A DNA stretch of 64,000 bases. Origin: Flectonema sp. DT1601 (Eukaryota). The notes under the pieces are model-generated. The model worked only from the letters and a program-made list of their open reading frames with translations. It searched no databases and had not been told where the DNA came from. The translations under genes and the position numbers were made by a program. Below, piece after piece: positions 1-21,831 of this stretch; the first letter of the stretch is position 1, and each line of letters begins with the position of its first letter. The DNA is taken from positions 1-64,000 of the forward strand of contig OZ025785.1 of assembly GCA_964019425.1 (NCBI GenBank), read 5' to 3'.

Positions 1-3000
1 AGGGAGGGTTGCCTGTCACAGGCGATCTCGGCCCTAGACGCGCCGCCGCCAGCAGAACGAACCGAGAAGGTGCTGGAGCAGATGCGCACCCTACACCCGA
101 GGGCGAGCGGACCCCCATCGGCCACGGCAGGGCAGGAGGTGCAGATAGCAGAGGTGGAGCTGCTAGCATGCCTACGCTCCTTCCACAGGGGGTCGAGTGG
201 AGGGCCTTCGGGCCTCGCGCCGCAACACCTGAAGGACGTGGTGGAGCGGGGTGAGGTGCCGGGGCTGGTAGCCTCGATCACGGAGGTGGTGAGGATTCTG
301 GCGAACGGGAGGGCGCCGCGGGAAGTAGCGCCGCTGCTGGCGGGGGCGAACCTGACGGCGCTGGAGAAAGAAGGGAAGCCGGGGGAGCACCGGCCAGTCG
401 CGGTGGGGGAAACATGGAGGCGGCTGGTGGCGAAGATCCTGTGCGGGGCATACAGGTCCCAGGCGAGGAGCTCGTTGCTAGAAGTGAGACAACTGGGAGT
501 AGCGGTGTCGGGGGGAGTGGAGGCGGCGGTGCACACCCTGCATGAGTTCCGCGCGGAGCACGCGCTCTCGTCACAGAAAGTGTTCGTGAAGATAGACTTC
601 TCGAACGCCTTCAACTGCGTGAAGAGGGGGGCGTTCCTGGATTCGACGAGGGATACCCTGCTGGAGAGCTGGGTCAGCTGGTGTTACGGAGCGCCGACGT
701 GGTTGCTATTTGGGGACGAGAGGCTGAGCTCGGAGGAGGGTGCTCAGCAGGGGGATCCGTTGGGTCCCTTGCTGTTCTCGTTGGCAATCAAGCCGGCGCT
801 GCAGAAGGTGTTAGAGGCGAAGCCGGAGTTGGCGTGCTTCTACCTGGACGATGGGCTGGTGGCGGGCACCCTGGAACAGGTGGACAAGGCCCTCCAAATC
901 CTGCAGAAGGAGACGGCGGAGCTGGGGCTGACGCTGAGGCCGGACAAGTGCCAGACACACGTGCTCGACTCAGCCCAGAACACCCTGCCCATGGGGTGGG
1001 GGTTGGAGGGGATGAGACCCCCACTGTACAACGGGGACTTCCTGGGGGCACCGTTCGGGACGGATGAACACTGCCAGGAGTTCGTCGACAGGAAGGTGGC
1101 GCAGCTGGAGAAGAAAGCGGAGCTGCTAGCAGACCTGCAGGACCGGCAGGTGGCCATGGTGCTCCTAAGGCAATGCATGGGCTTCTGCAAGGTGACCCAC
1201 CTGATGCGATGCTGCACGCATGGGAAAATGGACACCTCGATGCGGAAGGTGGACGAGCTGATGAGGTCCACGGCGAGCCGAGTGTTGGGCCTGACACTGG
1301 AGGGGCCAAAGTGGATGCAGGCACAACTGCCGACCCGGATGGGGGGATTGGGGCTGCGGTCATGTGCAGAGCACAGGGGAGCAGCACTACTGGGATCCCT
1401 GGAGTTAGTCCAAGGGGTGAGCAAGTCACTATGGGAGGGGTTCAAGGGTGTGCTGATGCCAGCACTGAAGAAGGGGTTGAACCTCGCCCTCCCGGAGGAG
1501 CTAAGGATAGAAGAAGACGGGCCCGGGCCGAACCCCCAGAGACTGTCCTCGGCGAAACTGGACCAGGTCAAGAGAGACTGCCTGCTGGCGGGGGCGGATG
1601 ACCCGCGCGATAAAGGGAGGCTGCTCTCTCTGCGCATGGATAAGGCGAGCGCATGGCTGCAACAAGCAGATGAAGAGTGCGCGATGGACCCAGAGACGTT
1701 CAGGATCGCATGTGGGATGCGATTGGGCGCAGCGCTGTTCGCAGAAGGGGCAGTATGCAGGATATGCTCAGGCCCGCAGGATAGGCAGGGATACCATGCC
1801 TCGATCTGCATCAAGAACGGGCACGTGCACCAGCGACACGAGAGGGTGAAGGAGGAGTTCATCTCCATCTTTAAGCAGGCGGGATTGCCGCTGCTGAGAG
1901 AACCCAGCCACCTACTGGGACCCAACAAGCAGAGACCGGGGGACTGGTACTGCCAAGAGGGGCTGAGGGAGGGGAGAGGCAGAGCCTTCGACATCACGGT
2001 GGTAAACCCGGGGAAAATTAAAGTATATAAAACCCCGGGGCAAGCCGCGAGAGAAGCAGAGTCCCTGAAAGGGAACAAGTACGCGGAGCAGTGCACGAAA
2101 CACGGGATTAATTTCTCGACAATCGCGCTGGAAGCGTACGGAGGGATGGGACGGGAAGCTGTGGGGACCCTGAAGAAGTTGGTGCAGATCTGCGCAACGA
2201 ACTCGACGGTGCCACACCGGGAGATCGCGGGGGAGATGGCGAGGAGGATCTCGACATCGGTGGTAGTGGCGACGGCGGAAGCACTGAGAGCGAGGGAGGC
2301 GTCGGTGGCGATGGACTCGGTGAACCCATTGCCAAGGACGAAACCGCCGCCCGAGATGACGGAGAAGCCGACACCACAAGAGAGAGAACCAAGACCGAGA
2401 GCGGAAACGGAAGAGATCCAGCAGCCGGAAGCAATGTTGCAGTCGGCAGGACCGAACCCGACGATGAGTGGTTTGCCGAACATCGGGAACTCCTGCTACC
2501 TCAACGCGTCCGTACAGTGCCTGCTGAAGGGCACGGCACTGACACAAGTGCTGACGGGGAAGGAGGAAGTGGGGATGTCGGGCCTCCTGAGTGGAGTGGT
2601 CAAAGGGAGTGGGGAGTGCCTGGAGAAGCTGTCCAAGATGTTCGACCCGCTACAAGACAGGCGGCAGGGGGAGGTAGTAGGAACCCTGACGTCCATAGTA
2701 GACGCCCTGTTGGAGGAGAAGAAAGAGGAGTGCGAACCGTTGTTCTCGGCAGTACAGCTGAAACAGCTGGTCTGCACGGGATGTGCGGACGCCTCCGGAT
2801 CGACGGATGAGTTGACGCTGATCCCACTGTGTGGCCGTACACCACAAGTGAGGCTTCAGCCGACGAAGGAGAGAGTCGAGCGGTCCTGCGAGAAGCTGTG
2901 CGGCAGCAATGAGGCCACGTTGGAAGAGAGTTTCGCCTCGCTCCCAAGCTCCTTGATCTTCCAGAGAGACAAGCAGGACACGCAAGGGTCCTTGGGATGG

Positions 3001-6000
3001 GAAGAGCGCTTCCAGGTGCAGGTCGGGGAGAGGGTGATGACGTACCAGCAAACGGGAGCGATCGCACACCTCGGGAGTGACAACGCGGGGCACTACGTGT
3101 CATACACGTGGGACGGAGTAGGCTGGCAGAAGCAAGACGACAAGGCAATAAGCCAAGTGTCGACAGAGGAGATCCACGGTACGAGACCAGTAGTAGTGGT
3201 CTACTCGAGGGTAGAGGGATCGACCCAAGAGGACGTCGGGGTGCCGGTGAGATGGATTCCGGTGGCGAACAAGGACCGGATGGAGGTACGCGAGGCACCG
3301 CCGTCGGAGGAGGACACCGCGGGGTACACGTCCAGGGAAGAGGCGGAGTGTGTCCTCCGGACGCGAGTAATAGGGGGGCAGGCACAGCGCAAGCTGCTCC
3401 TACTGGTATCGAGCGTCTGGAACGCGGAGATGGAGAAGCTGGGGGCGGCGGCATGCCTGATACACATGGGAACGCTCGACAGGAGGTTCACGTGGTCGGG
3501 CTGCCTACCGACATGGGACGAAGCGACGGCGGAGTACGTGGCAGCGCTGCTAGGGCTCAACGCGATCAGGGAGAGATCGCAACTGCTGGGGGGTGAGACA
3601 CAGATCGAGGTGGTCACACCGCAGCAGGGGTGGGGAGTCGAGCAGCAGGAGGCGCTGAAGTTGGTAGCGCTCCCGTCGGTGATAGAACACCAGGTGACGG
3701 AAAGCCCCCGAGGGGTGGAGAACCTGGCCCTCTGGGAAGCGGAGTCGGCGGCGTGGGACGAGCCGGTGGAGCTCTCGGAGGACGGGCTCGACTACCTGGT
3801 GATCGAGCTGGAGATGAATCTGGGGCTGTCCCATTTGAGGGGAAAGACGGCGGAACCGGTTGAATCCCAGTCGCTCCCGGGAGGGTCGACGGCGTCAGGC
3901 GAAGACAGACCACGAGCCGAAGCGCCGGCCCAGGAGGAAGCGCGGACGACGGACGCACAAGGAGCGGAAGCAGTAGGGCTGAGAGACGAGCCAGCACAGG
4001 AAGTGGGACAACCCGAGGAAAAAGAGCACCCACCCCCCGACCCCCCGTCGAAGGAGGAGAAGCTGTATGCGGTGGCGGTGGGATGGAAACCGGGAGTGTA
4101 TGCATCGTGGGAGGAGGCGAAGGCACAGACGGAAGGGTGCCCGAATGCGACACACCAGAGTTTCTCCTCCAGGAAGGAGGCGGACAGGTTTGTAGAGAGG
4201 TGGCAGCCGGAGACCAGGGAACCGACCCGGGCCACGGAGGGAGTCAGCCCACGTAAGTGGTACGCAGTGGCGAGGGGCAGGGCGGTAGGCCTGTTCCAAT
4301 GCTGGAACGAGGCGAACTCGATGGTGTCAGGCTACGCGGCGGCGAGACACAAGAGTTTCGCAAGCAAGGGGGAGGCGGAGGGATACCTCCGAACCCACCT
4401 GCTGGGGGAGGTGGTGGGGGAAGTAGGGACGAGGTACACCTTGGTGTACGCGTGCGAGGTAGACCCGGTAACGGGCCGTCTGGGGGCGGCGGCGAGCTGG
4501 CTGGACACACACCGGTTCGAGGTGTTGGGCACATGGTCAGCTGGCCTGCCAGCGGGAGACACACACGGGGGGCGATACTTCGCAGCCCTGGTGGGGCTGG
4601 TAGCGGCCAAGGCGTGTGGAGGCCTCGTCCCAGCGGAGGCATCCCTGCTGCTGCGAGGAAGCACGACACACTGGTCGACGGACCAGAGAGAGGTGCTGGA
4701 GGAGGCGGATTTGATGGGGAGGCGTACGACGCTGGTGGAGATGCCAGAGGGGATGAGAACACACGCGACGGAGGAGGCGGAAAAAGCGGCGAAAGAGGGC
4801 TCGACCTCAGTGACGGAAGCCGTGATGAAGGTTTTCACAGAGGGGGCAACGAACTGCCTGGGACACGGGACACGGACGGGGAGTCCCTTCACGGTGCGGT
4901 GGGAGGGAAGACAACTGCGTCTGGAACCCCGGTACACGGAAGGGGGGACGGGATCGTCAGGCGGCCGAGAGTCGGTGGAAGGAGAAGACGCGAGGGTGGA
5001 GGGCCGAGACGAGCAGAGCCCGGTCCCAACCCCGAAGGGGGCTGTACAAAGGGTAGAGGCGGGAGTCCTGGAGTTGAGCTCGGAAGGGTCGGAGGGAGAT
5101 GACGATAGATCATCCTCCCCAGCGACAGGGCAGGACGAAGGGAACGGTTCCATGTCGGGAGGCTCCTTGGGGAGTCCAGGGACGTCGGACATGGAAGCGG
5201 AAGAACAGACGGACGAAAGGGACCAGTCCGTAGACCCGTCGGCAGCAGAAACCTCAGGCGAAAACCATCACCTGGCCGAGGACCTGCAAGCCGAGAAGGG
5301 GGACGAGCTGGACGAGACGTCCCACCACTCAGGAGAGCCACCGTCGTCAGACGGCATGGACGGAGTGGAGGGGTTGGAGGACCTGGAAGACTCACAGTCG
5401 GAGATGGAAGTCGACGGAGAAAATGTGACGGAAGGGTCAGTAGTCCAGTACGTCGAGGAGACGTCAGAGGACGTGGTCCAAGTGGCAGAGTCGGACACAG
5501 AGGAGGAGGGATCGTCAGACTCCCAAATGACCATGACGGTCGATGAACAGGAATGGGAAGAGGGAGCGGCGCCCGAGGGGAACGCAGGTCAGATGGCCTG
5601 GATGCTGGGACTACACCCAGAAGGGGGGAACGCGGAAACACGACGGGAGGGCCAATCGGAGCCCCTTTCAAAGCTGGTGAACTCAGGCGAAACAAAACCA
5701 ATGGCCGAGAGATCCAGTTTGGGGGCGAAGATGGGACCACGCGCAGTGGGTAGTGACGGGAGCGGGGAAGACGCAGAGAGATCGCCGGGCACGGTGTCGA
5801 CACCGAGCACGAGAGGGAGGACGAAGTACAGAAAGGGAATGGAGGAGGAGAGGGAGGAGTGTGTGTCGCCGAAGACAAATACGGGAAGGGGACGCACGAG
5901 AGGCCGGAAGGCAAAGACGGGGGCAAAGGGGGCCGGAAAGGAGGACCCAAGTCCGCAGGTGTTGCAGGCGGAAATGGGAGAGTCCACCCCGAGCTCAGGT

Positions 6001-6432
6001 GAACGGCAGGCGAGGAGGAGGTACAGGAAGGGAGAAGAGAGGGAGAGGATAGAGGTTCTCTCCCCAGACCCGAGCAGGAAAGCGAAGAGGAAGAGACGCA
6101 AGCAGAAGGAACCGGAGCCAGTGGAGGGCACCACGAGGGAACAGGCGCCGCGGAGTTACAACAGGAAACCCACACTGCGTCGGGTAGGTAAGGGAGACAC
6201 ACCCGACACAATGGGGTACGCACACGGGCCCCCGGGCTCCCTGACCTCGTTCACGGACGCGGGCGTACGCCCGGAGCCGGCGGAACGAGACGGACAAGGT
6301 GTGGCAGGAGCAGAGTTGGTCACAAGGTCGTCGTCACAGAGTGAGAAAAGCACCCAAGGAGAGATGAGGGAGAGAGAAGGGGATCCAACGCGAAGGGTCC
6401 TGGACTTCTCGTCGAAAGGGGGAAGGCGCTAG
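1..6432 (+). CDS. Retrotransposon polyprotein (5'-open): RT, zinc knuckle, RLE, USP/UCH peptidase C19, RNase H-like fold, two RNase H1 hybrid-binding (Cauli_VI-like) domains, second RNase H-like fold, acidic/basic disordered tail
   Basis: Frame is open from base 1. RT motifs: RPVAVGE..RRLVAK, DFSNAFN, QQGDPLGPLLF, YLDDG (841), QLPTRMGGLGL. CxxC..H...C at ~1756-1809. RLE motifs: RH, RPGD, FDITV, E..K, F..IALEAYGG. USP Cys box GLPNIGNSCYLNASVQCL (~2470) and His box HLGSDNAGHYVSY..QDD (~3067-3141). Two YAVAxG..G.Y..W.E...G...H.SF...EA motifs (~4060-4200, ~4255-4392). Confidence 0.9.
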   Translation, partial: REGCLSQAISALDAPPPAERTEKVLEQMRTLHPRASGPPSATAGQEVQIAEVELLACLRSFHRGSSGGPSGLAPQHLKDVVERGEVPGLVASITEVVRILANGRAPREVAPLLAGANLTALEKEGKPGEHRPVAVGETWRRLVAKILCGAYRSQARSSLLEVRQLGVAVSGGVEAAVHTLHEFRAEHALSSQKVFVKIDFSNAFNCVKRGAFLDSTRDTLLESWVSWCYGAPTWLLFGDERLSSEEGAQQGDPLGPLLFSLAIKPALQKVLEAKPELACFYLDDGLVAGTLEQVDKALQILQKETAELGLTLRPDKCQTHVLDSAQNTLPMGWGLEGMRPPLYNGDFLGAPFGTDEHCQEFVDRKVAQLEKKAELLADLQDRQVAMVLLRQCMGFCKVTHLMRCCTHGKMDTSMRKVDELMRSTASRVLGLTLEGPKWMQAQLPTRMGGLGLRSCAEHRGAALLGSLELVQGVSKSLWEGFKGVLMPALKKGLNLALPEELRIEEDGPGPNPQRLSSAKLDQVKRDCLLAGADDPRDKGRLLSLRMDKASAWLQQADEECAMDPETFRIACGMRLGAALFAEGAVCRICSGPQDRQGYHASICIKNGHVHQRHERVKEEFISIFKQAGLPLLREPSHLLGPNKQRPGDWYCQEGLREGRGRAFDITVVNPGKIKVYKTPGQAAREAESLKGNKYAEQCTKHGINFSTIALEAYGGMGREAVGTLKKLVQICATNSTVPHREIAGEMARRISTSVVVATAEALRAREASVAMDSVNPLPRTKPPPEMTEKPTPQEREPRPRAETEEIQQPEAMLQSAGPNPTMSGLPNIGNSCYLNASVQCLLKGTALTQVLTGKEEVGMSGLLSGVVKGSGECLEKLSKMFDPLQDRRQGEVVGTLTSIVDALLEEKKEECEPLFSAVQLKQLVCTGCADASGSTDELTLIPLCGRTPQVRLQPTKERVERSCEKLCGSNEATLEESFASLPSSLIFQRDKQDTQGSLGWEERFQVQVGERVMTYQQTGAIAHLGSDNAGHYVSYTWDGVGWQKQDDKAISQVSTEEIHGTRPVVVVYSRVEGSTQEDVGVPVRWIPVANKDRMEVREAPPSEEDTAGYTSREEAECVLRTRVIGGQAQRKLLLLVSSVWNAEMEKLGAAACLIHMGTLDRRFTWSGCLPTWDEATAEYVAALLGLNAIRERSQLLGGETQIEVVTPQQGWGVEQQEALKLVALPSVIEHQVTESPRGVENLALWEAESAAWDEPVELSEDGLDYLVIELEMNLGLSHLRGKTAEPVESQSLPGGSTASGEDRPRAEAPAQEEARTTDAQGAEAVGLRDEPAQEVGQPEEKEHPPPDPPSKEEKLYAVAVGWKPGVYASWEEAKAQTEGCPNATHQSFSSRKEADRFVERWQPETREPTRATEGVSPRKWYAVARGRAVGLFQCWNEANSMVSGYAAARHKSFASKGEAEGYLRTHLLGEVVGEVGTRYTLVYACEVDPVTGRLGAAASWLDTHRFEVLGTWSAGLPAGDTHGGRYFAALVGLVAAKACGGLVPAEASLLLRGSTTHWSTDQREVLEEADLMGRRTTLVEMPEGMRTHATEEAEKAAKEGSTSVTEAVMKVFTEGATNCLGHGTRTGSPFTVRWEGRQLRLEPRYTEGGTGSSGGRESVEGEDARVEGRDEQSPVPTPKGAVQRVEAGVLELSSEGSEGDDDRSSSPATGQDEGNGSMSGGSLGSPGTSDMEAEEQTDERDQSVDPSAAETSGENHHLAEDLQAEKGDELDETSHHSGEPPSSDGMDGVEGLEDLEDSQSEMEVDGENVTEGSVVQYVEETSEDVVQVAESDTEEEGSSDSQMTMTVDEQEWEEGAAPEGNAGQMAWMLGLHPEGGNAETRREGQSEPLSKLVNSGETKPMAERSSLGAKMGPRAVGSDGSGEDAERSPGTVSTPSTRGRTKYRKGMEEEREECVSPKTNTGRGRTRGRKAKTGAKGAGKEDPSPQVLQAEMGESTPSSGERQARRRYRKGEERERIEVLSPDPSRKAKRKRRKQKEPEPVEGTTREQAPRSYNRKPTLRRVGKGDTPDTMGYAHGPPGSLTSFTDAGVRPEPAERDGQGVAGAELVTRSSSQSEKSTQGEMREREGDPTRRVLDFSSKGGRR

Positions 6433-7164
6433 GGACTCCACGAAGGAGGTCTCAAGAGCCGAGGAAAAGACAGAGCCAAGACCCCAGAGCCAACCCAAAA
6501 CACATGGTAGAGGACGAGGGAGAACAAGAGCGGGAGCGAGGTTAGAAACGTGACCAAAGCCCCCGCGAAGCAGGAGACACAACCTGCAACCAGACCCCCC
6601 CAAAAAAAAAAAAAAACCCCGGTCAACGAGGCAAACTCGGACCAAAACATGCTTTTCACCCCCCCCAGGAAACACCGACCAGTGGAGCCAAAGGCCGCAC
6701 ACATATTATAAAAATCAAAGGCCGCCCCCCAACCCAAGAAAAGGATGAAAAACTTTCAAGCGAAAAAACTTGACGTCCGTACGCCCCAGAGATCAAAGGA
6801 CGGACGACTCACACCCCCTTCTTTCGCCCCATTTTATTTACTGGTACAGCGACAAATGTAAAGCTGGGTAGACGACGAATTATCTTTTGTGCACAGAGAC
6901 AAGGGATCCATGAGAACAAAGGATCAAGAGAAGAAGGGCACATTCCCCATCCCAAACCCAGAAACATGAGAACTCATTAAATTGAAGGGTCATGTCTTTT
7001 CAAGTCGAAAAATGCTTAAATGCTGAAGAAGACTGTCGTCCCCAGCTCGCGGGTTTTCCCTGTCGCTGTATGGCGAGACAACGATCAGAGTCAGTAGAAA
7101 GATTGTACAAATTTGTTGTATAATGAGAAAGGACAAAGAAAGTAGTTTCCATTTTATCTTCCCG

Positions 7165-7201
<37 letters not shown>
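1..7201 (+). mobile_element. CRE-clade-like non-LTR retrotransposon (RT + CCHC + restriction-like endonuclease, long C-terminal extension); 5' end lies outside the window
   Basis: One long ORF to 6432, a ~730-nt 3' UTR (6433-7164) and a 37-nt poly(A) at 7165-7201. Strong G+A strand bias unlike the AT-rich host DNA. The 3' UTR is repeated at 8357-8913. Confidence 0.92.
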
Positions 7202-7205
<4 letters not shown>

Positions 7206-7206
7206 C

Positions 7207-7288
7207 GGCGAGATGGCCGAGCGGTCTAAGGCGTTGCGTTAAGGCCGCAATCTCTTCGGAGGCGTGGGTTCAAACCCCACTCTCGTCA
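7207..7288 (+). tRNA. trnL-AAG: tRNA-Leu (anticodon AAG)
   Basis: Acceptor stem GGCGAGA/TCTCGTC+A, D-arm TGGCCGAGCGGTCTAAGG, anticodon stem TTGCG/CGCAA with loop TTAAGGC, long variable arm, T-arm GTGGGTTCAAACCCCAC, followed by a TTTT Pol III terminator. Confidence 0.95.
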
Positions 7289-7310: not shown

Positions 7311-7690
7311 AGAATCCATGTCCTATTGTAGTCAGCTTCTGAAAAACCGGAAACATCGATAGAGGCGGGAACTCAATAAACCTGTTTCCCTTAAAGGAAT
7401 AAAAAACATCAATCAGTGTCAAATACTTTGGTGGAAGGACATAACTTCAATTTGATGTGAGTCAACCTGCTGAAGAATGATAATTAAACTGCCCAGCTTT
7501 TGACGGTAGTGTAGTGGACTACCGTGGCTGTAACGGGTAACGGGGAATTAGGGTTCGATTCCGGAGAGGGAGCCTGAGAAACGGCTACTCAGACATTGTA
7601 CGTTGCTTGGACACCAGGCAGCTGCAGCACTTGAATCGAATGCTCAACTCCATTCAATATTTCTTTCTGTGTCCCAACTCATCCTGTACT
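7311..7690 (-). pseudogene. Heavily deleted relic of the LRR gene family (one LRR piece plus pieces of its upstream region)
   Basis: 7311-7375 matches LRR repeat DNA (tcctattgtagtcagcttctgaaaaaccggaaacatcgat). 7441-7490 and 7592-7682 match the LRR upstream region (e.g. gacaccaggcagctgcagcac...gtgtcccaactcat, cf. 16887-16962). Confidence 0.7.
7489..7588 (+). rRNA. ~100-bp fragment of 18S rRNA (not a full gene)
   Basis: Contains the conserved SSU stretch TAACGGGTAACGGGGAATTAGGGTTCGATTCCGGAGAGGGAGCCTGAGAAACGGCTAC; flanks are not rDNA. Confidence 0.9.
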
Positions 7691-8356: not shown

Positions 8357-8913
8357 AAACTCGGACCAGAACATGCTTTTCACCCCCCCCCAGGAAACAC
8401 CGACCAGTGGAGCCAAAGGCCGCACGCATATTATAAAAATCAAAGGCCTCCCCCCAACCCAAGAAAAGGATGAAAAACTTTCAAGCGAAAAAACTTGACG
8501 TCCGTACGCCCCAGAGACCAAAGGACGGACGACTCACACCCCCTTCTTTCGCCCCATTTTATTTACTGGTACAGCGACAAATGTAAAGCTGGGTAGACGA
8601 CGAATTATCTTTTGTGCACAGAGACAAGGGATCCATGAGAACAAAGGATCAAGAGAAGAAGTGCACATTCCCCATCCCAAACCCAGAAACATGAGAACTC
8701 ATTAAATTGAAGGACATGTCTTTTCAAGTCGAAAAAATGCTTAAATGCTGAAGAAGACTGTCGTCCCCAGCTCGCGGGTTTTCCCTGTCGCTGTATGTCG
8801 AGACAACGATCAGAGTCAGTAGAAAGATTGTACTAATTAACAGTATAATGAAAAAGGACGAAGAGAGTAGTTTCCATTTTATCTTCCCGAAAAAAAAAAA
8901 AAAAAAAAAAAAA
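8357..8913 (+). mobile_element. 5'-truncated copy of the CRE-like element (3' UTR + poly(A) only)
   Basis: Near-identical to ~6633-7201 with scattered substitutions and indels; ends ATTTTATCTTCCCG + A24 (8890-8913). Confidence 0.92.
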
Positions 8914-9136: not shown

Positions 9137-11764
9137 TTAATTAGATTTGAACATCTCACAAGACGTCGTTGGAGTGATTTGGCCAACGTTACCTCCCACC
9201 ACAGAGAATTTACCTTTCTCTCCCAAATAGTATTGCAATTCCAACTTGCCGTCTCTTTTACGCCACACTCGAAGGTTATCAGATGCTGTTACTATAACAT
9301 TGCCATCAGATGAAACAGCGAAAGCGCGTACCTTCTTAGAATGGCCTTCTAATGTGTGTTTTACTACACCCTCAGAAGACACCAAAGTGATCCCTTTTCC
9401 ATCAAAAGCTACAAAGTCATCGTTTCGAAGTCTAATCGGGAGGATGGAATCATAATGCAGAGAACATCCGACGGCTTCACCTGTTCCTGCCTTCCATTGA
9501 AAGACTTTACCATCGGAACTCCCAACAAGAAACTTCCCGCACTCCGAGAATGTGACGGCATCAACACTCTGCTCAGGTATCGTTAACTTATGTTTCAACG
9601 TGTCTGGTGAGAGAAGCAACACGTTCTTCCGAGTGGCACATGCTACGTTCCCTGCTGTGCATGCGATGTCCACAATTTCCCCAACTGAAGAACTGCTCTT
9701 ACTCTTAGGCTGCAAGGTTTCGTTGAGGACTTCCAGTTTGTCTTTAGCTCCAACGAAGATTGACAACGATCCCCCCTCCTGGTAGGCAGCCATACATGAA
9801 TAGGAAATATTATTCCTTGTATCGACTGTGGTCCAATCATCTGTTGAGAATAATTTGATTTCACTTCGTGTCATAGTGACGAGGTACGATGAACAGAGAG
9901 AGACAGAGACGACAGAAGGATCTTCTGAATTACTGCTGGCCCGCAGTCGACGGAGTTGAGCACCAGTTCGAAATTTCCAAATTATGACAAGGCCACCTTC
10001 ACAGCCGCTTGCAAGCAGTTCTGAATAAATTGAAACGTGAGTGACATTCTGCTTGTGCCCTTGGTGGTGTACTGGTAAATAATCATCTTCACGTGTGTTC
10101 CACAATCGAACAGTGCGATCATTGTCGCTGTATCCCGAAGTGGTAATATATTCACCATTACTTGAGTATCTTATTGACATTACTTTACATCCATGTCCAT
10201 GAAGTTTTTTGACGGGCTGCTTCGTTTGCAACCTAATTATTTCAACCTCATTGTCACCTCCCGACGCTACGTAATTCCCACAAGTCGAAAGTGCCAGCCC
10301 ACCGGCTTTCCCTAAAAAGTTCGTCCGCGGTTTGTACTCTTTATCCCAAATGTGAATGGTGAACACACTCGCATTTTCGCTCACCGAAGCAAAACTGATT
10401 TCATTGTTACTAACTCCCATCGGAAGAACTGCAATTTGCTGCGGAATACCAGAATCAATAACAGAATCAGTTATGATGAGTTCCTCATACGAATCCTCTC
10501 TTCGCCTCCATATCACGATTTCTTTACCCTGTGCACAAACTAAGTCACCCGATGAAGTGTATTTTATACTCTTTGCCGTTCCTCCCCTTTTTCTTGGGAT
10601 TCTCTCATGATTTCCCCAAAATAGTTTTTGTTGATCATCCTTGACATCCCACACCATGACAGACGGCTTGCCTCCGTACTTTAGAGCAACTGCCAAGTGC
10701 GCATCATCAGGTGAGAAGACTAGGTCGTTAAGTAAGATATCCCCCTCTTCATGTTTAAGACAATTATACTTCCCTTCTTGGAATGGACTCCAGATAACCA
10801 CTCTCGCAGAATGATTATTAGTACCTGCATGAGAGCAAGTAGCAAGTAGAATGTTTTTATCATCTTTCGCACTGTTACAAGCAATTCCACTTATAAACAA
10901 CGGATGGTACTCACTCAGATTTATCTTCTTAACAACTTTCCCAGTAGCTGATGAGTACAATCCGACATGATTATTGAAAGCGGCGACGATGTATTCGCTG
11001 GATGACGTGAATATCGATTTCACTTTTGCATCAGTCACACTAATCGGAGGTACCCTCATATCAAACGTCGGATTATGAATTTCTGAATAGTCAAAATCGC
11101 AACGCATCATAAGGCACCTCTTGAAGTCACAATTGATGAGAAACGATCCTTCAAAATTCACTTCAACTAAACAACCACCACAAAAACTCACATCCTCCAG
11201 GTGCAGACCGGACAAATCTTCACCAAATAACGTGCAACCTGAAGAGACTAACAACGACAATGCGTTGCTGGCGATGGTACGTTCCTTCTCAACTTCCTTC
11301 TCAACTTTGGATGTCTTAACCAGAGGAAGTAATTTCTTACTCAACTCGTCGTGGTTTCCAATACTTTGTTGAATGAGTTTGTGCTGTTCTAAGATTCCTG
11401 GCTGGGTTTTCGAAAAGCGTAATTTCGACAGCATCTCCCTCAACTCATCTTCACCACATTTGGCAATGTGACTGGCAATTAGATATTCAGCCAACGTTTT
11501 GTGATGAAATCTTACAACACCCATCTCGTAGTACACGGGCAGAAATATCACCAGTCTCTCGAACTCGGCTATCTCTTTGTCGTCTTTGAAATAGTTTGAC
11601 GCCTTTCCTCCCCAGTGCCCCTGTTGCAGCATACGACACGCCAGCATCTCTGCCATGCGTTTCACATCCGCAGATTTTATTAGTTTTTCTTTCTTTTCAT
11701 CTTCCAACTGTTTCTTAATAAATCCATCGATAAACGCTTTGTAAACCGTGGATTTACTTGTCAC
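9137..11764 (-). CDS. Last exon of an NLR-like STAND protein: NACHT-associated helical/winged-helix region, pentapeptide repeats, WD40 propellers
   Basis: RFHHKTLAEYL motif; DLSGLHLEDVSFCGGCLVEVNFEGSFL pentapeptide-like run; WD40 motifs GHGCKV..DRTVRLWN, GHKQNV..IIWK, GHSKKV..LRVW. Acceptor AAACAG|GTG at 11765/11764. Confidence 0.85.
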   Translation of the reverse strand: MTSKSTVYKAFIDGFIKKQLEDEKKEKLIKSADVKRMAEMLACRMLQQGHWGGKASNYFKDDKEIAEFERLVIFLPVYYEMGVVRFHHKTLAEYLIASHIAKCGEDELREMLSKLRFSKTQPGILEQHKLIQQSIGNHDELSKKLLPLVKTSKVEKEVEKERTIASNALSLLVSSGCTLFGEDLSGLHLEDVSFCGGCLVEVNFEGSFLINCDFKRCLMMRCDFDYSEIHNPTFDMRVPPISVTDAKVKSIFTSSSEYIVAAFNNHVGLYSSATGKVVKKINLSEYHPLFISGIACNSAKDDKNILLATCSHAGTNNHSARVVIWSPFQEGKYNCLKHEEGDILLNDLVFSPDDAHLAVALKYGGKPSVMVWDVKDDQQKLFWGNHERIPRKRGGTAKSIKYTSSGDLVCAQGKEIVIWRRREDSYEELIITDSVIDSGIPQQIAVLPMGVSNNEISFASVSENASVFTIHIWDKEYKPRTNFLGKAGGLALSTCGNYVASGGDNEVEIIRLQTKQPVKKLHGHGCKVMSIRYSSNGEYITTSGYSDNDRTVRLWNTREDDYLPVHHQGHKQNVTHVSIYSELLASGCEGGLVIIWKFRTGAQLRRLRASSNSEDPSVVSVSLCSSYLVTMTRSEIKLFSTDDWTTVDTRNNISYSCMAAYQEGGSLSIFVGAKDKLEVLNETLQPKSKSSSSVGEIVDIACTAGNVACATRKNVLLLSPDTLKHKLTIPEQSVDAVTFSECGKFLVGSSDGKVFQWKAGTGEAVGCSLHYDSILPIRLRNDDFVAFDGKGITLVSSEGVVKHTLEGHSKKVRAFAVSSDGNVIVTASDNLRVWRKRDGKLELQYYLGEKGKFSVVGGNVGQITPTTSCEMFKSN

Positions 11765-11841
11765 CTGTTTGTTGATTTTGACTTTAGCTGTAACCTCCTT
11801 GCATTGATCAAAAGAAACCACCAGTATAGAATTACACATAC

Positions 11842-12567
11842 CCCTTCGTGATGAGCCTTGATCGCCATATAGAGGAGCTGTGGGCTGCTCAGCTCATCCC
11901 AAACTCCTCGTTGCTTCAGGTTCTCAACATTTTTCTGATCCACATCTTCGTTGTGCGATATCATTTTTTCTCCAAACTCGTCCTTCTGTTCGGCACTAAA
12001 AGGACGCAGATAGTAAGAATTAGCATTCCTAAGGAGATCTTTCGGAGTGAGTTCTCGTCGGATGAAATTTTCAGTTCTGCTCGTGAGGATAACCCACGAT
12101 TTTGACAACAGCAACGGGTTGAGTTTCAGTAAGTCGGTACCGGAGTCACCGACAACGTTTGCAGTTCCTTCATCAAAGGAATCAAGAACTATAACAACAG
12201 TGTAGGTGAATAGTTGTTTGATATCACAATCAGGTGGAAGCATATGCTTCACGATGTACTTGTCGATAGCATGCGGCTCGAATGCATTTCCGACACTTCC
12301 CATCGACACAAATATTGGGAAGTATTTCTCACTCAATTCTCTAATTAGTTTGACCCCCGCAGAAGTCTTCCCCCCTCCAGCCTCTGACTGCAGTACGAGT
12401 GGGGGTCGGTCGTCACTCTCAAGAAGGTCTTTAATCAATTCAGTTAAGCTGATGTCTTCAATTCTACATAAAGTTGGATCGACGTAACAACATTCGAATT
12501 TTTTAAAAACGAATTCGGCAAGAATAAACCACGCTTGACGCATGTGCTCCAACTGCTCCGATCTAGT
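11842..12567 (-). CDS. NACHT NTPase exon of the NLR-like protein
   Basis: Walker A QSEAGGGKTS (~12390-12361), Walker B VVIVLDSFDE, sensor ILTSR, LRPFS, SPQLL. Donor GGG|GTATGT at 11842/11841 joins in phase 0 to the WD40 exon. The 5' boundary (CCACAG|ACT) is inferred. Confidence 0.8.
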
Positions 12568-12654
12568 CTGTGGTGGTTTACTTTCTTGTCTACCAACTAA
12601 AAAAACCAAAAATAAGGGACTGCAATAATAAACCGAGAAATTTGATGGAAGGTT

Positions 12655-13001
12655 CGGTAAACAATACACTCCTACAAAACATAGAGAACGTTCTAGTGTT
12701 TGATGCTCTTCGAGGAATATTTGTTGCAATTTTCGCAGAAAGCGGGTTTGCTTCATATAAAGATGGTCTGCGATAATAGAGTGAAGCCCATCCACATTCT
12801 CCTCCGTAAACCTTCTCCAGATGATTGATGTAAGAAAAAGTGCTTGAATTGAAGTTACGCATCCTTTGCTAATTCTTCATCACCAGAAACTCATCCAGTT
12901 TAAAAATAATGGCAACTGTCGATTCCCTGTCCTCTGTTTTGAGGAGCCATCAGAGGTTCATGGCGGTAAACAATACACTCCTACAAAACATGGAGAACGT
13001 T
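12655..13001. repeat. 38-bp direct repeat enclosing a ~270-bp insert that carries an inverted LRR-gene 5' fragment
   Basis: cggtaaacaatacactcctacaaaacat(a/g)gagaacgtt at 12655-12692 and 12964-13001. 12844-12965 is the LRR upstream region plus the codons for MATVDSLSSVLRSHQRFMA on the + strand. Confidence 0.85.
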
Positions 13002-15200: not shown

Positions 15201-16709
15201 TTACGATGACCTCTCACTTATCGAATGACAGATCCAACTGTAGACGACATCACTGCATTCTCTTAATCCTTTGACACTGTTCTTAGTTAGTTTTGTATTC
15301 TCTAAGAAACAATATCCCATCATAGTCAGCCCCCGAAGACCCGAAACATCGATGGAGGTGAGGGACTCACAGTTACTTATAAAGTAATCGCCAACCCTCG
15401 TAACTTCACCCAAGGAAGACAAATCCACGCTAGTCAGAGACTTTGAATTTTTTAAGAACCCAAGTCCTATTGTATTCAGCTTCCGAAAACCGGATACATC
15501 GATAGAGGTCAGGGACTCACAGTTACTAATAAAGTTATTATCAATGCTTCTAACTTCACTCAAGGAAGACAAATCCACGCTAGTCAGACACTTTGAACCA
15601 TGCAAGAACCCATGCCTTATTTTAGTGAGCTTCTGAAAACCGGAAACATCGATGGAGGTGAGTGACTCACAGTTACTCATAAAGTCATCGCCAACACTCG
15701 TTACCTTACTCAGACAGGATAAATCCACGTGAGTCAGAGACTGCAAGTTGTTCAAGAATTCGCAGGGGATGGCCGTCACATTGTGAAAAGAAGTGAAATC
15801 GATTGACGTCAGCGAGTCACAACTGTCTGACAGGAACTCTTGCTCAAATGCAGTGCAACGGCTGCAGTTGGTGAATGACAACCGACGGATAGAAGACGGA
15901 AGCATCTCAATACAATCACTAGAAAGGGTGCCTTCATCGTCGATATATTCTGAGGCATCGAGGACACACAACATGTCGGGATTTAGTCCGAACAAATTGT
16001 CAATTCGAGTACGAAGATGTGAAGTTCTCAACTCCTCCGCAGTCACAACACGTTCATACCGAGGCCATTTGTATGTTCTTTTCACAGTACCCCAGTTGCT
16101 CGAATCTTCCAGCTCACGGAGGATCTGGGCACCCCATGAGGTGTTGTCAAATTGGGATTTGACTTCTTCCTTCGACGAATGGGAGAGTCTCGGCCAGTCC
16201 AGCAACAGGAAGAGTTCCTTCCTGAGTTGGGCTGGGACACCCTCCTCTGTTTCACCCATGCCCAAGTAACCAATTTGAAGTGTGTTGAAATACTCATCCT
16301 CGTTCAGCATCCAAGGGAAGCAGGTGGACGAGAATACATTCCTCAGGTCATCTTCGACCAACTCCAACTTCCCGTCCCCCTTGAGATCAGCTTTAACAAA
16401 CCCGATATCGGCACACTTCATGTCAGGATGCAAGGAAAGGGTTCCCAGTAATCGCGAGCTTCCTTCCACCAACTTCGCCGACTCCTTCTCCCTCGCCACC
16501 CGGTGTACTTCCTTGTACGTCGTCAATTCAGTCGCAGCCTCAGCATCCGTCATTCCAACCATGATCTCCTCCGACGATCTGAGAACTTCTGAAAAGCTGT
16601 CCATCAGCGCCCCCGACTCTTCCTTCCGACTCACCACTTCCACGAGCAGCTTCGCCATGAACCTCTGATGGCTCCTCAAAACAGAGGACAGGGAATCGAC
16701 AGTTGCCAT
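15201..16709 (-). CDS. LRR protein (25-aa alternating repeats, BspA/LRR_5-like), 502 aa, diverged paralog
   Basis: Shared ~270-aa N-terminal region, repeats LTSIDVSGFxKLTxI.xxFL / LTSVDLSSLxEV.x.xxFI, C-terminal cap TKLT..VKGL.ECSDVV. Confidence 0.85.
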   Translation of the reverse strand: MATVDSLSSVLRSHQRFMAKLLVEVVSRKEESGALMDSFSEVLRSSEEIMVGMTDAEAATELTTYKEVHRVAREKESAKLVEGSSRLLGTLSLHPDMKCADIGFVKADLKGDGKLELVEDDLRNVFSSTCFPWMLNEDEYFNTLQIGYLGMGETEEGVPAQLRKELFLLLDWPRLSHSSKEEVKSQFDNTSWGAQILRELEDSSNWGTVKRTYKWPRYERVVTAEELRTSHLRTRIDNLFGLNPDMLCVLDASEYIDDEGTLSSDCIEMLPSSIRRLSFTNCSRCTAFEQEFLSDSCDSLTSIDFTSFHNVTAIPCEFLNNLQSLTHVDLSCLSKVTSVGDDFMSNCESLTSIDVSGFQKLTKIRHGFLHGSKCLTSVDLSSLSEVRSIDNNFISNCESLTSIDVSGFRKLNTIGLGFLKNSKSLTSVDLSSLGEVTRVGDYFISNCESLTSIDVSGLRGLTMMGYCFLENTKLTKNSVKGLRECSDVVYSWICHSISERSS

Positions 16710-17242
16710 TTTCTTAAACTGGATGAGTTTCTGGTGATGAAGAATTAATTCAAAGGATACGTAACTTCAATTCAAGAATGAAGGAAAACTGCTTGTGAGT
16801 CAACTTCCCACTTGTCTGGAAACCACCTGAAGAATATCAGCGTGTGATGAATTAAAACTCCGACTTCGATACCATTGTACGCAAGAGACACCAGGCAGCT
16901 GCAGCACTCGAATTGAATGCTCAACTCAATTTTAATATTTCTTTCTTTGTGTCCCAACTCATATGAAGGCAGCTGTACTGCCCTTGGCTGTTGAAGTAAA
17001 CAAACAATTACACAACTCACAAAAGGGATGAATAACATATCAACGGGAAGCTGTGTCCTGACTTCACTAAATGAATACATTTTGTTTTCTACTGTTGTAG
17101 TGATTCTCAAAGGGAAACCCATGCTGAGTGCAGGATTTCAGGTCTTTTAGAGGATGAAGCAGCGAGTCCTTTAAAATCATTCCAACGACATCACTGCAAT
17201 CTTCCAATCCCTTGAAATCTTTCTCAGTCAGTTTTGTATGAC

Positions 17243-18730: not shown

Positions 18731-20638
18731 TTAGTTAGTCTCAGTATTGGGTTGGTAGGTACAAAATAATAAAGCAGTGACTAAATAAAGCAAGATGATA
18801 AGCTTGTTACAACCTAAAACCAACCGGAAGAAGGTGTTGATCTTATATTTAAAAATATATTCAACTTCCCTTTTAACGACATCACTGCACTCCCCCAACC
18901 CCCTGACAACTTTCTTAGTCAGTTTTGTTTCCTTCAGGAAACTTCCTCCTATTTTGCTCACCTTCTTCAAACCGGAAACATCGATGGAGGTGAGGGACTC
19001 ACAGTTATTAATAAAGTAATCGCCAACACTCGTAACTTCAGTCAAAGAAGACAAGTCTACGCAAGTCAGACACTTTGAATTATACAAGAATCCATCTCCT
19101 ATTTTAGTCAGCTTCTTCAAACCGGAAACATCGATGGAGGTGAGGGACTCACAGCCTCTAATAAAGTCATCGCCAACACTCGTTACTTCACTCAAGGAAG
19201 ACAAGTCTACGCTAGTCAGAGACTTTGAATTATGCAAGAATCCACTTCCTATTGTAGTCAGTTTCTGAAAACCTGAAACATCGATGGAGGTGAGGGACTC
19301 ACAGTTATAAATAAAGTCATCGCCAACCCTAGTAACTTCACTCAAGGAAGACAAGTCTACGCTAGTCAGAGACTTTGAATTATGCAAGAATCCGCTTCCT
19401 ATTTTAGTCAGTTTCTGAAAACCGGAAACATCGATGGAGGTGAGGGACTCACAGTTATAAATAAAGTAATTGCCAACACTCGTTGCTTCACTCAAGGAAG
19501 ACAAATTTACGCTAGTCAGAGACTTTGAATTATGCAAGAATCCATCTCCTATTTTAGTCAGTTTCTGAAAACCGGAAACATCGATGGAGATGAGGGACTC
19601 ACAGTTGCTAACAAAGTCGTCTCCAACACTTGTTACTTTACTCAGACAGGATAAATTAACGTGAGTCAGAGACTTCAAGTTGTTCAAGAACTTGCTGGGG
19701 ATGATCGTCACATTGTGCAAAGAAGTGAAATCGATTGACGTCAGCGAGTCACAACTGTCTGACAGGAACTCTTGCTCAAATGCAGTGCAACGGCTGCAGT
19801 TGGTGATTGACAACCGACGGATGGAAGGTGGCAGCATGTCACAATCACCAGAAAGGGTGCCTTCATCGTCGATATATTCTGAGGCATCGAAGACATACAA
19901 CATGTCGGGATTTTGTGTGAACAAAGCGTCAATTCGAGTATGAAGATGTGAAGTTTTCAACTCCTCCGCAGTCACAACACGTTCAGACCGAGGCAATTTG
20001 TATGTTCTTTTCACAGTACCCCAGTTGTTCGAATCTTCCAGCTCACGGAGGATCTCGGCACCCCATGAGGTGTTGTCAAATTGGGATTTCACTTCTTCCT
20101 TCGACGAATGGGAGAGTCTCGGCCAGTCCAGCAACAGGAAGAGTTCCTTCCTGAGTTGGGCTGGGACACCCTCCTCTGTTTCACCCATGCCCAAGTAACC
20201 AATTTGAAGTGTGTTGAAATACTCATCCTCGTTCAGCAGCCGAGGGAAGCAGGTGGACGAGAATACATTCCTCAGGTCATCTTCGACCAACTCCAACTTC
20301 CCGTCCCCCTTGAGATCAGCTTTAACAAACCCGATATCGGCACACTTCATGTCAGGATGCAAGGAAAGGGTTCCCAGTAATCGCGAGCTTCCTTCCACCA
20401 ACTTCGCCGACTCCTTCTCCCTCGCCACCCGGTGTACTTCCTTGTACGTCGTCAATTCAGTCGCAGCCTCAGCATCCGTCATTCCAACCATGATCTCCTC
20501 CGACGATCTGAGAACGTCAGAAAAGCTGTCCATCAGCGCCCCCGACTCTTCCTTCCGACTCACTACTTCCACGAGCAGCTTCGCCATGAACCTCTGATGG
20601 CTCCTCAAAACAGAGGACAGGGAATCGACAGTTGCCAT
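18731..20638 (-). CDS. LRR protein, 635 aa, diverged paralog with more repeats and a hydrophobic C-terminal stretch
   Basis: Same N-terminal region; 150-bp DNA periodicity; cap followed by LIILLYLVTALLFC. Confidence 0.85.
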   Translation of the reverse strand: MATVDSLSSVLRSHQRFMAKLLVEVVSRKEESGALMDSFSDVLRSSEEIMVGMTDAEAATELTTYKEVHRVAREKESAKLVEGSSRLLGTLSLHPDMKCADIGFVKADLKGDGKLELVEDDLRNVFSSTCFPRLLNEDEYFNTLQIGYLGMGETEEGVPAQLRKELFLLLDWPRLSHSSKEEVKSQFDNTSWGAEILRELEDSNNWGTVKRTYKLPRSERVVTAEELKTSHLHTRIDALFTQNPDMLYVFDASEYIDDEGTLSGDCDMLPPSIRRLSITNCSRCTAFEQEFLSDSCDSLTSIDFTSLHNVTIIPSKFLNNLKSLTHVNLSCLSKVTSVGDDFVSNCESLISIDVSGFQKLTKIGDGFLHNSKSLTSVNLSSLSEATSVGNYFIYNCESLTSIDVSGFQKLTKIGSGFLHNSKSLTSVDLSSLSEVTRVGDDFIYNCESLTSIDVSGFQKLTTIGSGFLHNSKSLTSVDLSSLSEVTSVGDDFIRGCESLTSIDVSGLKKLTKIGDGFLYNSKCLTCVDLSSLTEVTSVGDYFINNCESLTSIDVSGLKKVSKIGGSFLKETKLTKKVVRGLGECSDVVKREVEYIFKYKINTFFRLVLGCNKLIILLYLVTALLFCTYQPNTETN

Positions 20639-21700: not shown

Positions 21701-21831
21701 ATTCCTTTCGGATTCAGGCTTGGGATGTTCCCTGTTCACTCGCCGTTACTGGGAGAATCGCTGTTGCTTTCTTTTCCTGTGCTGAGTGATATGCTTAAGT
21801 TCAGCACGTAGATCTTCAACTGCTGAGGTCG
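21701..21831 (-). rRNA. ~130-bp fragment of the 5' end of 28S (LSU) rRNA
   Basis: Reverse complement reads GACCTCAG...GCTGAACTTAAGCATATCACTCAGCACAGGAAAAGAAAGCAAC...CAGTAACGGCGAGTGAA, the conserved LSU 5' end. Confidence 0.88.

What the first reader, a model, noticed from the sequence alone, without database searches (positions are those of the whole stretch)
3390..4800. Tandem RNA:DNA hybrid-binding domains between two degenerate RNase H-like folds in the same ORF
Seen: two RNase H1 N-terminal/caulimovirus-VI-type motifs (KLYAVAVGWKPGVYASWEEAKAQ.., KWYAVARGRAVGLFQCWNEA..). They are flanked by two related segments (LLLLVSSV..KLGAAAC..WSGCL..TAEYVAALLGL; YTLVYACE..RLGAAAS..WSAGL..GRYFAALVGL). 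These resemble the RNase HI-like pattern D...G.G....AEY.A...GL but lack the first catalytic Asp. Inference: a non-cutting hybrid/R-loop-binding module that could hold the TPRT intermediate or guide the element to R-loop-rich loci such as tRNA genes.
Basis: partly seen in the sequence, partly recalled or inferred. Interest (0 to 1): 0.7.

Follow-up and report, generated by a model that had tools for sequence, protein, structure and literature searches.

The report
Retrotransposon carrying a disarmed RNase H1
A retrotransposon's single large protein ends in a likely captured cellular RNase H1 that has lost its RNA-cutting residues but kept two RNA:DNA-hybrid-binding-type domains, which would let it grip, rather than destroy, the hybrid it makes while copying itself into the genome.

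Summary
The stretch lies in the C-terminal extension of a multicopy non-LTR retrotransposon ORF of the restriction-like-endonuclease type (full length 2,840 aa: OTU, RT, endonuclease, USP, then this module). Two Pfam Cauli_VI hybrid-binding domains (HBDs) are real. The two flanks are related (score 113; best of 5,000 shuffles 60). The downstream flank models at pLDDT 79 as a type 1 RNase H (Foldseek probability 1.00; Z 13.6). It lacks the first Asp, the helix-A Glu and, by the better register, the third Asp. Sister element families carry USP-HBD-HBD plus one dead RNase H, the layout of cellular RNase H1. So the 'sandwich' is a tandem duplicate of a captured, inactivated RNase H1. Between families the HBDs are about 50% identical and the dead folds about 28%, so the HBD pair is the likely working part. 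Most likely it clamps the element's own RNA:cDNA hybrid (inferred, untested). Guidance to tRNA-gene R-loops is not shown: 1 of 2 element 3' ends in the window abuts a tRNA gene. Four literature searches found no HBD-bearing non-LTR element. New variant; seen in what appears to be one assembly.

The parts
1..6432 (+). Single ORF of a non-LTR retrotransposon, 5' part outside the window; full-length family members are 2836-2840 aa with an N-terminal OTU domain
   Evidence: P0167 and P0175
367..963 (+). Reverse transcriptase core, YLDD intact
   Evidence: Pfam RVT_1 aa 123-321, E 5.5e-17; best PDB sequence hits are R2 proteins; YLDD at aa 281
1756..2310 (+). Zinc knuckle (CRIC..H..C) and restriction-like endonuclease (RPGDW..FDIT); end approximate
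   Evidence: motifs located, motif reading recalled; 59% identical to sister families; no Pfam hit
2470..3204 (+). USP/UCH-type cysteine protease with Cys box (GNSCYLN) and His box (GHYVSY..QDD)
   Evidence: Pfam UCH aa 824-1068, E 7.3e-12; motifs
3247..3372 (+). Probable eroded HBD remnant that begins the first copy of the duplicated unit
   Evidence: weak: 7 of 3,000 shuffles against HBD2, not significant against the other three HBDs; 49 of 2,000 against an HBD profile; sits where sister families have HBD1
3382..3783 (+). Dead RNase H fold A: Ser1137 for the first Asp, Glu1178 kept, Thr1206/Pro1207 at the third Asp, Glu1248 for the last Asp
   Evidence: homology to B (alignment A3); columns; its own single-sequence model was uninformative
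4060..4191 (+). HBD1: Trp (human W43) kept, Gln-Ser at human K59-K60
   Evidence: human residues from PMC6846478 passage
4255..4392 (+). HBD2: Trp kept, Lys-Ser at human K59-K60, net charge +5
4423..4800 (+). Dead RNase H fold B: Ala1484 or Cys1485 for the first Asp, Arg1525 for the Glu, Gly1553/Ser1554 at the third Asp, Glu1594 for the last Asp; no basic protrusion in the model
   Evidence: AlphaFold2 pLDDT 78.9 from a 4-row alignment with no RNase H rows; Foldseek; VIA-align Z 13.6; ESM Atlas
4918..6429 (+). Acidic then basic low-complexity tail; start approximate
   Evidence: sequence; barely alignable to sister families
6433..7201 (+). 3' UTR and poly(A) tail (7165-7201)
   Evidence: sequence; second copy of its last ~560 bases at 8357-8913
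7207..7288 (+). tRNA-Leu(AAG) gene beginning 5 bases after the poly(A)
   Evidence: ARAGORN, Rfam
8357..8913 (+). Short second copy of the element's 3' end with its own poly(A), not followed by a tRNA gene
   Evidence: 96.8% identical over 558 bases

Best explanation
This is the tail of a non-LTR retrotransposon protein that likely captured a whole cellular RNase H1 (two hybrid-binding domains plus the nuclease fold), lacks the nuclease's catalytic residues, and likely uses the two retained binding domains to clamp its own RNA:cDNA hybrid during target-primed reverse transcription. Shown here: two HBDs; an RNase H fold for flank B; loss of the catalytic set; the layout RT-endonuclease-USP-HBD-HBD-dead fold in sister families; a second dead fold in this family. 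Inferred: capture from a cellular RNase H1; that flank A is a tandem duplicate of the unit whose HBDs eroded; that the dead folds serve as folded spacers rather than binders; that the HBDs bind hybrid, HBD2 more strongly than HBD1; that binding tethers the protein to the growing hybrid over a template of about 9 kb and shields it from early cutting, leaving RNA removal to host RNase H. I put the history (capture, then inactivation) at about 0.9, hybrid binding by the HBD pair at about 0.75, and the whole statement at 0.5.
For: Fold: pLDDT 78.9, order b1-b2-b3-aA-b4-a-b5-aE; all 40 listed Foldseek rows are RNase H structures or RTs that contain one, probability 1.00; VIA-align top rows RNase H1, Z 13.6, rmsd 3.4, 119 aligned; 3 of 4 listed ESM Atlas clusters carry RNase H-clan families. 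Catalysis: none of the 4 dead domains has the first Asp and 3 of 4 lack the Glu, while an intact RNase H of another element in this window scores Pfam E 2.3e-9 and keeps D-E-D-H-D. Layout: P0209 runs RT..USP-HBD-HBD-dead fold; many natural RNase H1 hits have two or more HBDs before the nuclease. Constraint: identity to sister families RT 69%, endonuclease 59%, HBDs 49-54%, USP 27-30%, dead folds 27-33%; 0 changes in 97 HBD residues against 8 in 269 dead-fold residues between this copy and P0167. Trp43 kept in 6 of 6 HBDs of three families. Isolated HBDs and HBD pairs bind hybrid (PMC7888926 passages; PMC7657459 section 22). Host RNase H can finish a non-LTR insertion (PMC6068448 abstract).
Against: No binding data. 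HBD1 has Gln-Ser at K59-K60 (Gln in 21 of 310 natural HBDs). The module lies 800-1,300 residues downstream of the RT, behind a protease, so it need not act at the RT. Most elements of this type insert without any such module (PMC4640811 sections 3 and 9). In Drosophila a second HBD weakens binding. Sequence support for the RNase H origin is weak alone (hhalign P 0.02-0.03 against the pooled set, not significant against the bacterial-type set; no RNase H hit in PDB sequences). Flank A's own model gave ferredoxin-like matches at pLDDT 41. The third-Asp register is ambiguous: mafft placed a Glu of B in that column and gapped two rows, one sister family has Asp at the hhalign column, and B has a Glu one or two places after the first-Asp position. 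All three families appear to come from one assembly.
Confidence: 0.5

Rival explanations
1. The HBD pair reads host R-loops and brings the element's particle to R-loop-rich loci such as tRNA genes, where the endonuclease cuts just upstream of the gene.
For: The poly(A) ends 5 bases before the only tRNA gene in 64 kb. R-loops form on yeast tRNA genes, and a model of R-loop-aided Ty1 targeting is proposed in PMC4214602 (passages). An engineered HBD pair maps R-loops in cells (PMC7888926 passages).
Against: The second 3' end in the window is not at a tRNA gene (1 of 2). A 5-base offset suggests sequence or Pol III factor recognition rather than a diffuse R-loop (inference). In wild-type yeast, tRNA R-loops are low. 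Target-specific elements of this type lack HBDs (PMC4640811 section 9).
Confidence: 0.17
2. The HBDs bind double-stranded RNA or hybrid outside the insertion step, for example structured element RNA or silencing intermediates, and work with the neighbouring USP and OTU proteases as a counter-defence arm.
For: The module is fused directly behind a USP with intact Cys and His boxes in all three families. Related elements carry OTU or USP domains at varied positions (P0153, P0179, P0155). [quoted passage not shown]
Against: Isolated HBDs bind dsRNA weakly or not at all. No evidence here on host silencing.
Confidence: 0.18
3. The module is a decaying passenger: a once-active captured RNase H1 that is no longer needed and is being lost slowly.
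For: The first unit's HBD is eroded. The dead folds are saturated in distance (about 3 substitutions per site between A, B and the sister domain). HBD1 lacks a binding lysine.
Against: HBDs stay 49-54% identical while adjacent linkers cannot be aligned and the dead folds fall to about 28%. The frame is open through the module in three families. The dead folds keep 19 invariant columns and still fold confidently.
Confidence: 0.1
4. The folds still cut RNA through a shifted or composite active site built from the remaining acidic residues.
For: A Glu is invariant at the last-Asp position and an Asp at the start of helix A in 4 of 4 domains. A keeps the helix-A Glu; B has a Glu near the first-Asp position.
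Against: No domain has the first Asp; the extra acids are not shared between domains; sister families have a single domain, so no composite site is conserved.
Confidence: 0.05

Closest known systems
Cellular RNase H1 with two HBDs (Drosophila RNase H1, PMC7657459; unnamed hits such as P0050)
   Same: HBD-HBD-RNase H order; PF01693 domains; RNase H fold
   Different: Catalytic set lost; no basic protrusion in the model; fused inside a retrotransposon ORF behind a USP; nuclease fold present twice in this family
Oomycete Utopia and Dualen/RandI elements with RNase H (PMC4640811 section 9; PMC5348765 passages)
   Same: Restriction-like-endonuclease non-LTR element that gained an RNase H; some relatives also carry a cysteine protease
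   Different: Utopia's RNase H lies upstream of the RT and is shown with the five conserved residues; no HBD is mentioned in the passages read. Here it lies downstream of the endonuclease and USP, is inactive and keeps HBDs
Degenerate RNase H of 'dual' RNase H retroelements (retroviral connection/tether; Tat, Chronos, Archon; PMC5348765 passages)
   Same: An RNase H fold that lost D-E-D-R/H-D and is retained
   Different: There a second, active RNase H replaces it next to the RT; here both folds are dead, far from the RT, and no active RNase H was found in the 2840-aa protein
Engineered R-loop sensors: 2xHBD and catalytically inactive RNase H1 (PMC7888926 passages)
   Same: Tandem HBDs without cutting activity
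   Different: Artificial; this would be a natural counterpart inside a mobile element
Caulimovirus P6/TAV (PMC5670102 passages)
   Same: A reverse-transcribing element that carries the PF01693 motif without an RNase H catalytic domain
   Different: Separate viral gene, not fused to the RT; described as binding double-stranded RNA

Membership tests
RNase H1 hybrid-binding domain (Pfam PF01693) | Profile score above the curated cut-off | tested here: met
   95.8 bits against 21, 2 stretches
RNase H1 hybrid-binding domain (Pfam PF01693) | Trp at human W43 | tested here: met
   both HBDs; 6 of 6 across three families
RNase H1 hybrid-binding domain (Pfam PF01693) | Basic residues at human K59-K60 | tested here: inconclusive
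   HBD2 Lys-Ser (Ser at 60 in 80 of 310 natural HBDs); HBD1 Gln-Ser
RNase H1 hybrid-binding domain (Pfam PF01693) | Binds RNA:DNA hybrid | not testable with these tools
   needs EMSA or interferometry
Type 1 RNase H | RNase H fold, flank B | tested here: met
Type 1 RNase H | RNase H fold, flank A | tested here: inconclusive
   own model pLDDT 41 with ferredoxin-like matches Z under 7; assigned by homology to B
Type 1 RNase H | Catalytic set D-E-D-H/R-D | tested here: not met
   first Asp absent in 4 of 4 domains, Glu in 3 of 4, last Asp is Glu in 4 of 4; third-Asp register ambiguous
Type 1 RNase H | Pfam RNase_H score | tested here: not met
   no hit for A or B; the intact RNase H at window 38820-42137 scores 38 bits
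Type 1 RNase H | Nuclease activity on hybrid | not testable with these tools
   needs an assay
Restriction-like-endonuclease non-LTR retrotransposons (R2 superfamily) | RT followed by zinc knuckle and PD..D-type endonuclease in one ORF | tested here: met
   Pfam RVT_1; R2 proteins best PDB hits; motifs located, motif pattern recalled
Restriction-like-endonuclease non-LTR retrotransposons (R2 superfamily) | 3' poly(A) and multiple copies | tested here: met
   poly(A) 7165-7201; 35 cluster members on many contigs, which are protein pieces, not a copy count
Restriction-like-endonuclease non-LTR retrotransposons (R2 superfamily) | Insertion at a fixed multicopy target | tested here: inconclusive
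   1 of 2 3' ends abuts a tRNA gene
CRE clade | RT phylogeny with named CRE elements | not tested
   no named CRE sequences were on hand; the resemblance of the RT motifs is recalled
RNase H-bearing Utopia | Intact archaeal-like RNase H upstream of the RT | tested here: not met
   full-length P0167 has OTU, not RNase H, upstream of the RT
Dual RNase H retroelements (connection/tether type) | Degenerate RNase H paired with a second, active RNase H | tested here: not met
   both folds lack the catalytic set; no Pfam RNase H in P0167

The most novel reading that the evidence does not exclude
A retrotransposon lineage turned a captured host RNase H1 into a natural non-cutting R-loop reader, fused to a deubiquitinase, that steers its insertion to the 5' edge of tRNA genes: target choice by nucleic-acid structure rather than by DNA sequence or host protein tethering.
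Probability: 0.15. Interest if true: 0.88.

Novelty: new variant of a known kind. Interest (0 to 1): 0.55.

Why it matters
How non-LTR elements manage the RNA:cDNA hybrid, and why some gain an RNase H while most do not, is open. The gains described in the papers read keep the nuclease active. Here the reverse seems to have been selected: binding domains kept, nuclease disarmed. That suggests holding or shielding the hybrid can matter more than cutting it. The module is small, separable and easy to assay, and R2-type proteins are being engineered for gene insertion, where a hybrid clamp could aid long templates. Limits: no binding data, and one apparent host assembly.

Tried and rejected
No whole genome is held, so other insertion sites could not be read. 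Single-sequence model of flank A: pLDDT 41, ferredoxin-like matches Z 6.7 or less, rejected as uninformative; the ESM Atlas could not be reached for flank A in six tries. Profile of the dead folds against PDB sequences: 3 chance hits, no RNase H. An RNase H profile scored each dead domain near zero bits. Flank B alone found no homologue among longer proteins. Metagenome scans: 339 pattern matches, 0 confirmed; 0 matches to the 3' end. Sequencing runs: no RNA holder listed; contigs of 3 runs covered the element in pieces and gave no 3' junction. Donor of the RNase H1: the tree put the dead folds on a very long branch with support 59 and nearest natural HBDs were mixed, so unresolved. Which fold is the older copy: A, B and the sister domain are equidistant (24-29%), so duplication in this family and loss in the sisters cannot be told apart. 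The intact RNase H of the other element in the window is not a clear donor (best score 36, reached by 10 of 500 shuffles). No DNA-level similarity between the two units. Earlier scan notes: nothing returned. Literature: searches listed no non-LTR element with an HBD or a dead RNase H1; searches listed none on CRE-type elements with OTU/USP; Repbase and subscription journals were not searchable, and no supplements were read.

Full report
Setting. Window 1-6432 is one open frame of 2143 aa, cut at its 5' end. Pfam finds a reverse transcriptase (aa 123-321), a USP-type protease (aa 824-1068) and two Cauli_VI stretches. A zinc knuckle and a PD..D-type endonuclease motif follow the RT (located; the motif pattern is recalled), and the best solved relatives of this part are R2 proteins. 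A 3' UTR ends in poly(A) at 7165-7201, five bases before tRNA-Leu(AAG). The protein cluster has 35 members on many long contigs; two are full length, 2836 and 2840 aa, with an N-terminal OTU domain. This is a multicopy non-LTR retrotransposon of the restriction-like-endonuclease type in an unidentified eukaryote. Its RT motifs look CRE-like from recall; I did not test the clade.

The observation. Both hybrid-binding domains (HBDs) are real: 95.8 bits against a cut-off of 21, and HBD2 matches the human RNase H1 HBD. The flanks A and B are homologous: 29% over 142 aa, score 113 against a maximum of 60 in 5,000 shuffles.

Are the flanks RNase H folds? Sequence alone is weak. There is no Pfam hit and no RNase H among PDB sequences. 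Against a pooled alignment of 34 natural RNase H domains (picked by hand from 54 motif-bearing proteins among the 151 then held), hhalign gives P 0.025, above all 100 column shuffles, and a collinear global alignment of 135 columns at P 0.03; the bacterial-type subset gives nothing significant. Structure is clear for B. With a four-row alignment holding only A, B and two sister domains, AlphaFold2 gave pLDDT 78.9, four of five models agreeing, with the order b1-b2-b3-aA-b4-a-b5-aE. All 40 listed Foldseek rows are RNase H structures or RTs containing one, at probability 1.00. VIA-align ranks Halobacterium RNase H1 first (Z 13.6, rmsd 3.4, 119 aligned), then two more RNases H1 at Z 13.2 and 12.4, with Argonautes from Z 9.3. 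The ESM Atlas gave RNase H-clan clusters at 0.89-0.90 in 3 of 4 listed rows, a lead-level score. A's own single-sequence model was poor (pLDDT 41; ferredoxin-like matches), so A is assigned by homology to B.

Catalysis. The conserved set is D-E-D-H/R-D (PMC4640811, section 9 read); E. coli-style labels below are recalled. In the 34 natural domains the columns are D 34, E 34, D 34, H 34 and D 33 of 34; the first is fixed by my selection. In the four dead domains the first Asp is Ser, Cys or Ala, Ser and Ser; the Glu survives only in A; the last Asp is Glu in all four. The third Asp is Pro in A and Ser in B by the hhalign register, which fits the end of strand 4 in the model; mafft instead put a Glu of B there and gapped the sisters, and one sister family has Asp at that column. 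B also has a Glu one or two places after the first-Asp position, not shared by the others. As a control, another element in this window has an RNase H with all five residues and a Pfam hit. The folds are very likely inactive.

The conserved unit. A search of 1.84 billion representatives returned 1,201 hits, of which 150 were listed; besides HBD matches, only P0006 scored clearly against the dead folds. A profile of the dead folds found three clusters, of 22, 7 and 16 members. They form two sister families with the order RT, endonuclease, repeats, USP, HBD, HBD, one dead fold (P0209, P0194, P0187). HBD-HBD-RNase H is the layout of many cellular RNases H1 (PMC7657459 abstract). In this family a weak HBD remnant precedes A where the sisters have HBD1 (7 of 3,000 shuffles against HBD2, not significant against the other three HBDs; 49 of 2,000 against a profile). 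The sandwich is thus best read as two tandem copies of a captured RNase H1 unit. Whether this family duplicated it or the sisters lost a copy is unresolved, as all distances are saturated. The donor is also unresolved.

Which part works? Identity to sister families is RT 69%, endonuclease 59%, HBDs 49-54%, USP 27-30%, dead folds 27-33%, linkers not alignable. Against P0167 the HBDs differ at 0 of 97 residues and the dead folds at 8 of 269. Human W43, K59 and K60 matter for hybrid binding (PMC6846478 passage). Trp is kept in 6 of 6 HBDs; HBD2 has Lys-Ser, a common natural state, and HBD1 has Gln-Ser, seen for Gln in 21 of 310 natural HBDs. The dead folds here are acidic (-9 and -5), though natural domains range from -14 to +10 and the sister domains are neutral. 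The model has a single helix between strands 4 and 5, so no basic protrusion, an element described as substrate-binding (PMC8387031 and PMC9719913 passages). All four have Asp at the column where 22 of 34 natural domains have Thr and none has Asp; that this Thr lines the phosphate pocket is recalled. I infer that the HBD pair binds and the dead folds are folded spacers.

Mechanism. Isolated HBDs and an engineered pair bind hybrid with nanomolar affinity and little dsRNA (PMC7888926 passages; PMC7657459 section 22, which also reports that a second HBD weakens binding). The hybrid that this protein is certain to meet is its own RNA:cDNA. A non-cutting clamp would tether the protein to a long template and could delay host RNase H, which can complete a LINE-1 insertion (PMC6068448, abstract only). 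This step is inference; I give the whole account 0.5. Rivals are counter-defence with the USP and OTU proteases (0.18), R-loop guidance to tRNA genes (0.17), decay (0.1) and a shifted active site (0.05). On guidance, one 3' end abuts the only tRNA gene in the window and a second, short copy does not; no further junction could be read.

Novelty. RNase H gains by non-LTR elements are known, including Utopia and Dualen, and degenerate RNase H folds are known beside an active one in retroviruses and some LTR elements (PMC4640811 sections 3 and 9; PMC5348765 passages). Searches listed no non-LTR element with HBDs or a wholly inactive RNase H1; I saw listings only for most of those papers, Repbase and subscription journals were out of reach, and no supplements were read. 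PMC5670102, PMC4214602 and PMC13580325 were seen as passages; the 1998 paper on the motif was seen only as a reference title. Verdict: a real feature, a new variant of a known kind, interest 0.55.

Noticed in passing
P0167 aa 327-413; window 2470-3204; P0153, P0179, P0155: The full-length element carries two unrelated deubiquitinase-type proteases (OTU before the RT, USP after the endonuclease); related RT proteins carry OTU or USP at other positions, suggesting repeated gains.
   Followed up: partly
window 7165-7288: The element's poly(A) ends 5 bases before a tRNA-Leu(AAG) gene; possible tRNA-upstream target, one junction only.
   Followed up: partly
window 8357-8913: A ~560-base second copy of the element's 3' end with its own poly(A), 96.8% identical; a truncated insertion or a short dependent element. 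It begins just after an internal A-run of the 3' UTR (6602-6616).
   Followed up: partly
window 38820-42137 (-): A second RT element with an intact RNase H (Pfam RVT_1 and RNase_H), interrupting a tandem gene array.
   Followed up: partly
window ~28300-55200 (-): A tandem array with a period of 3,291 bases, each unit with a 615-aa leucine-rich-repeat ORF (seven seen); looser relatives at 15201-16766, 18731-20698 and 26574-28268.
   Followed up: no
window 9137-12876 (-): NACHT and WD40 ORFs that overlap in different frames; an NLR-like gene, either split by an intron or frameshifted.
   Followed up: no
window 7335-7622 (+) and 21729-21808 (-): Short fragments of eukaryotic small- and large-subunit rRNA outside any rDNA unit.
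   Followed up: no
P0209 aa ~640-1200; P0194 aa ~400-900: Sister families have long Pro/Thr-rich tandem repeats between the endonuclease and the USP, and a Cys-rich B-box-like motif near the C-terminus, both absent from this element.
   Followed up: no
P0003, P0004, P0007: Proteins made almost wholly of six or more HBD-like repeats with acidic linkers and no RNase H motif: natural multi-HBD proteins of unknown role.
   Followed up: no
window 58438-63057 (-): A 1539-aa CLU/eIF3-p135/TPR protein gene.
   Followed up: no
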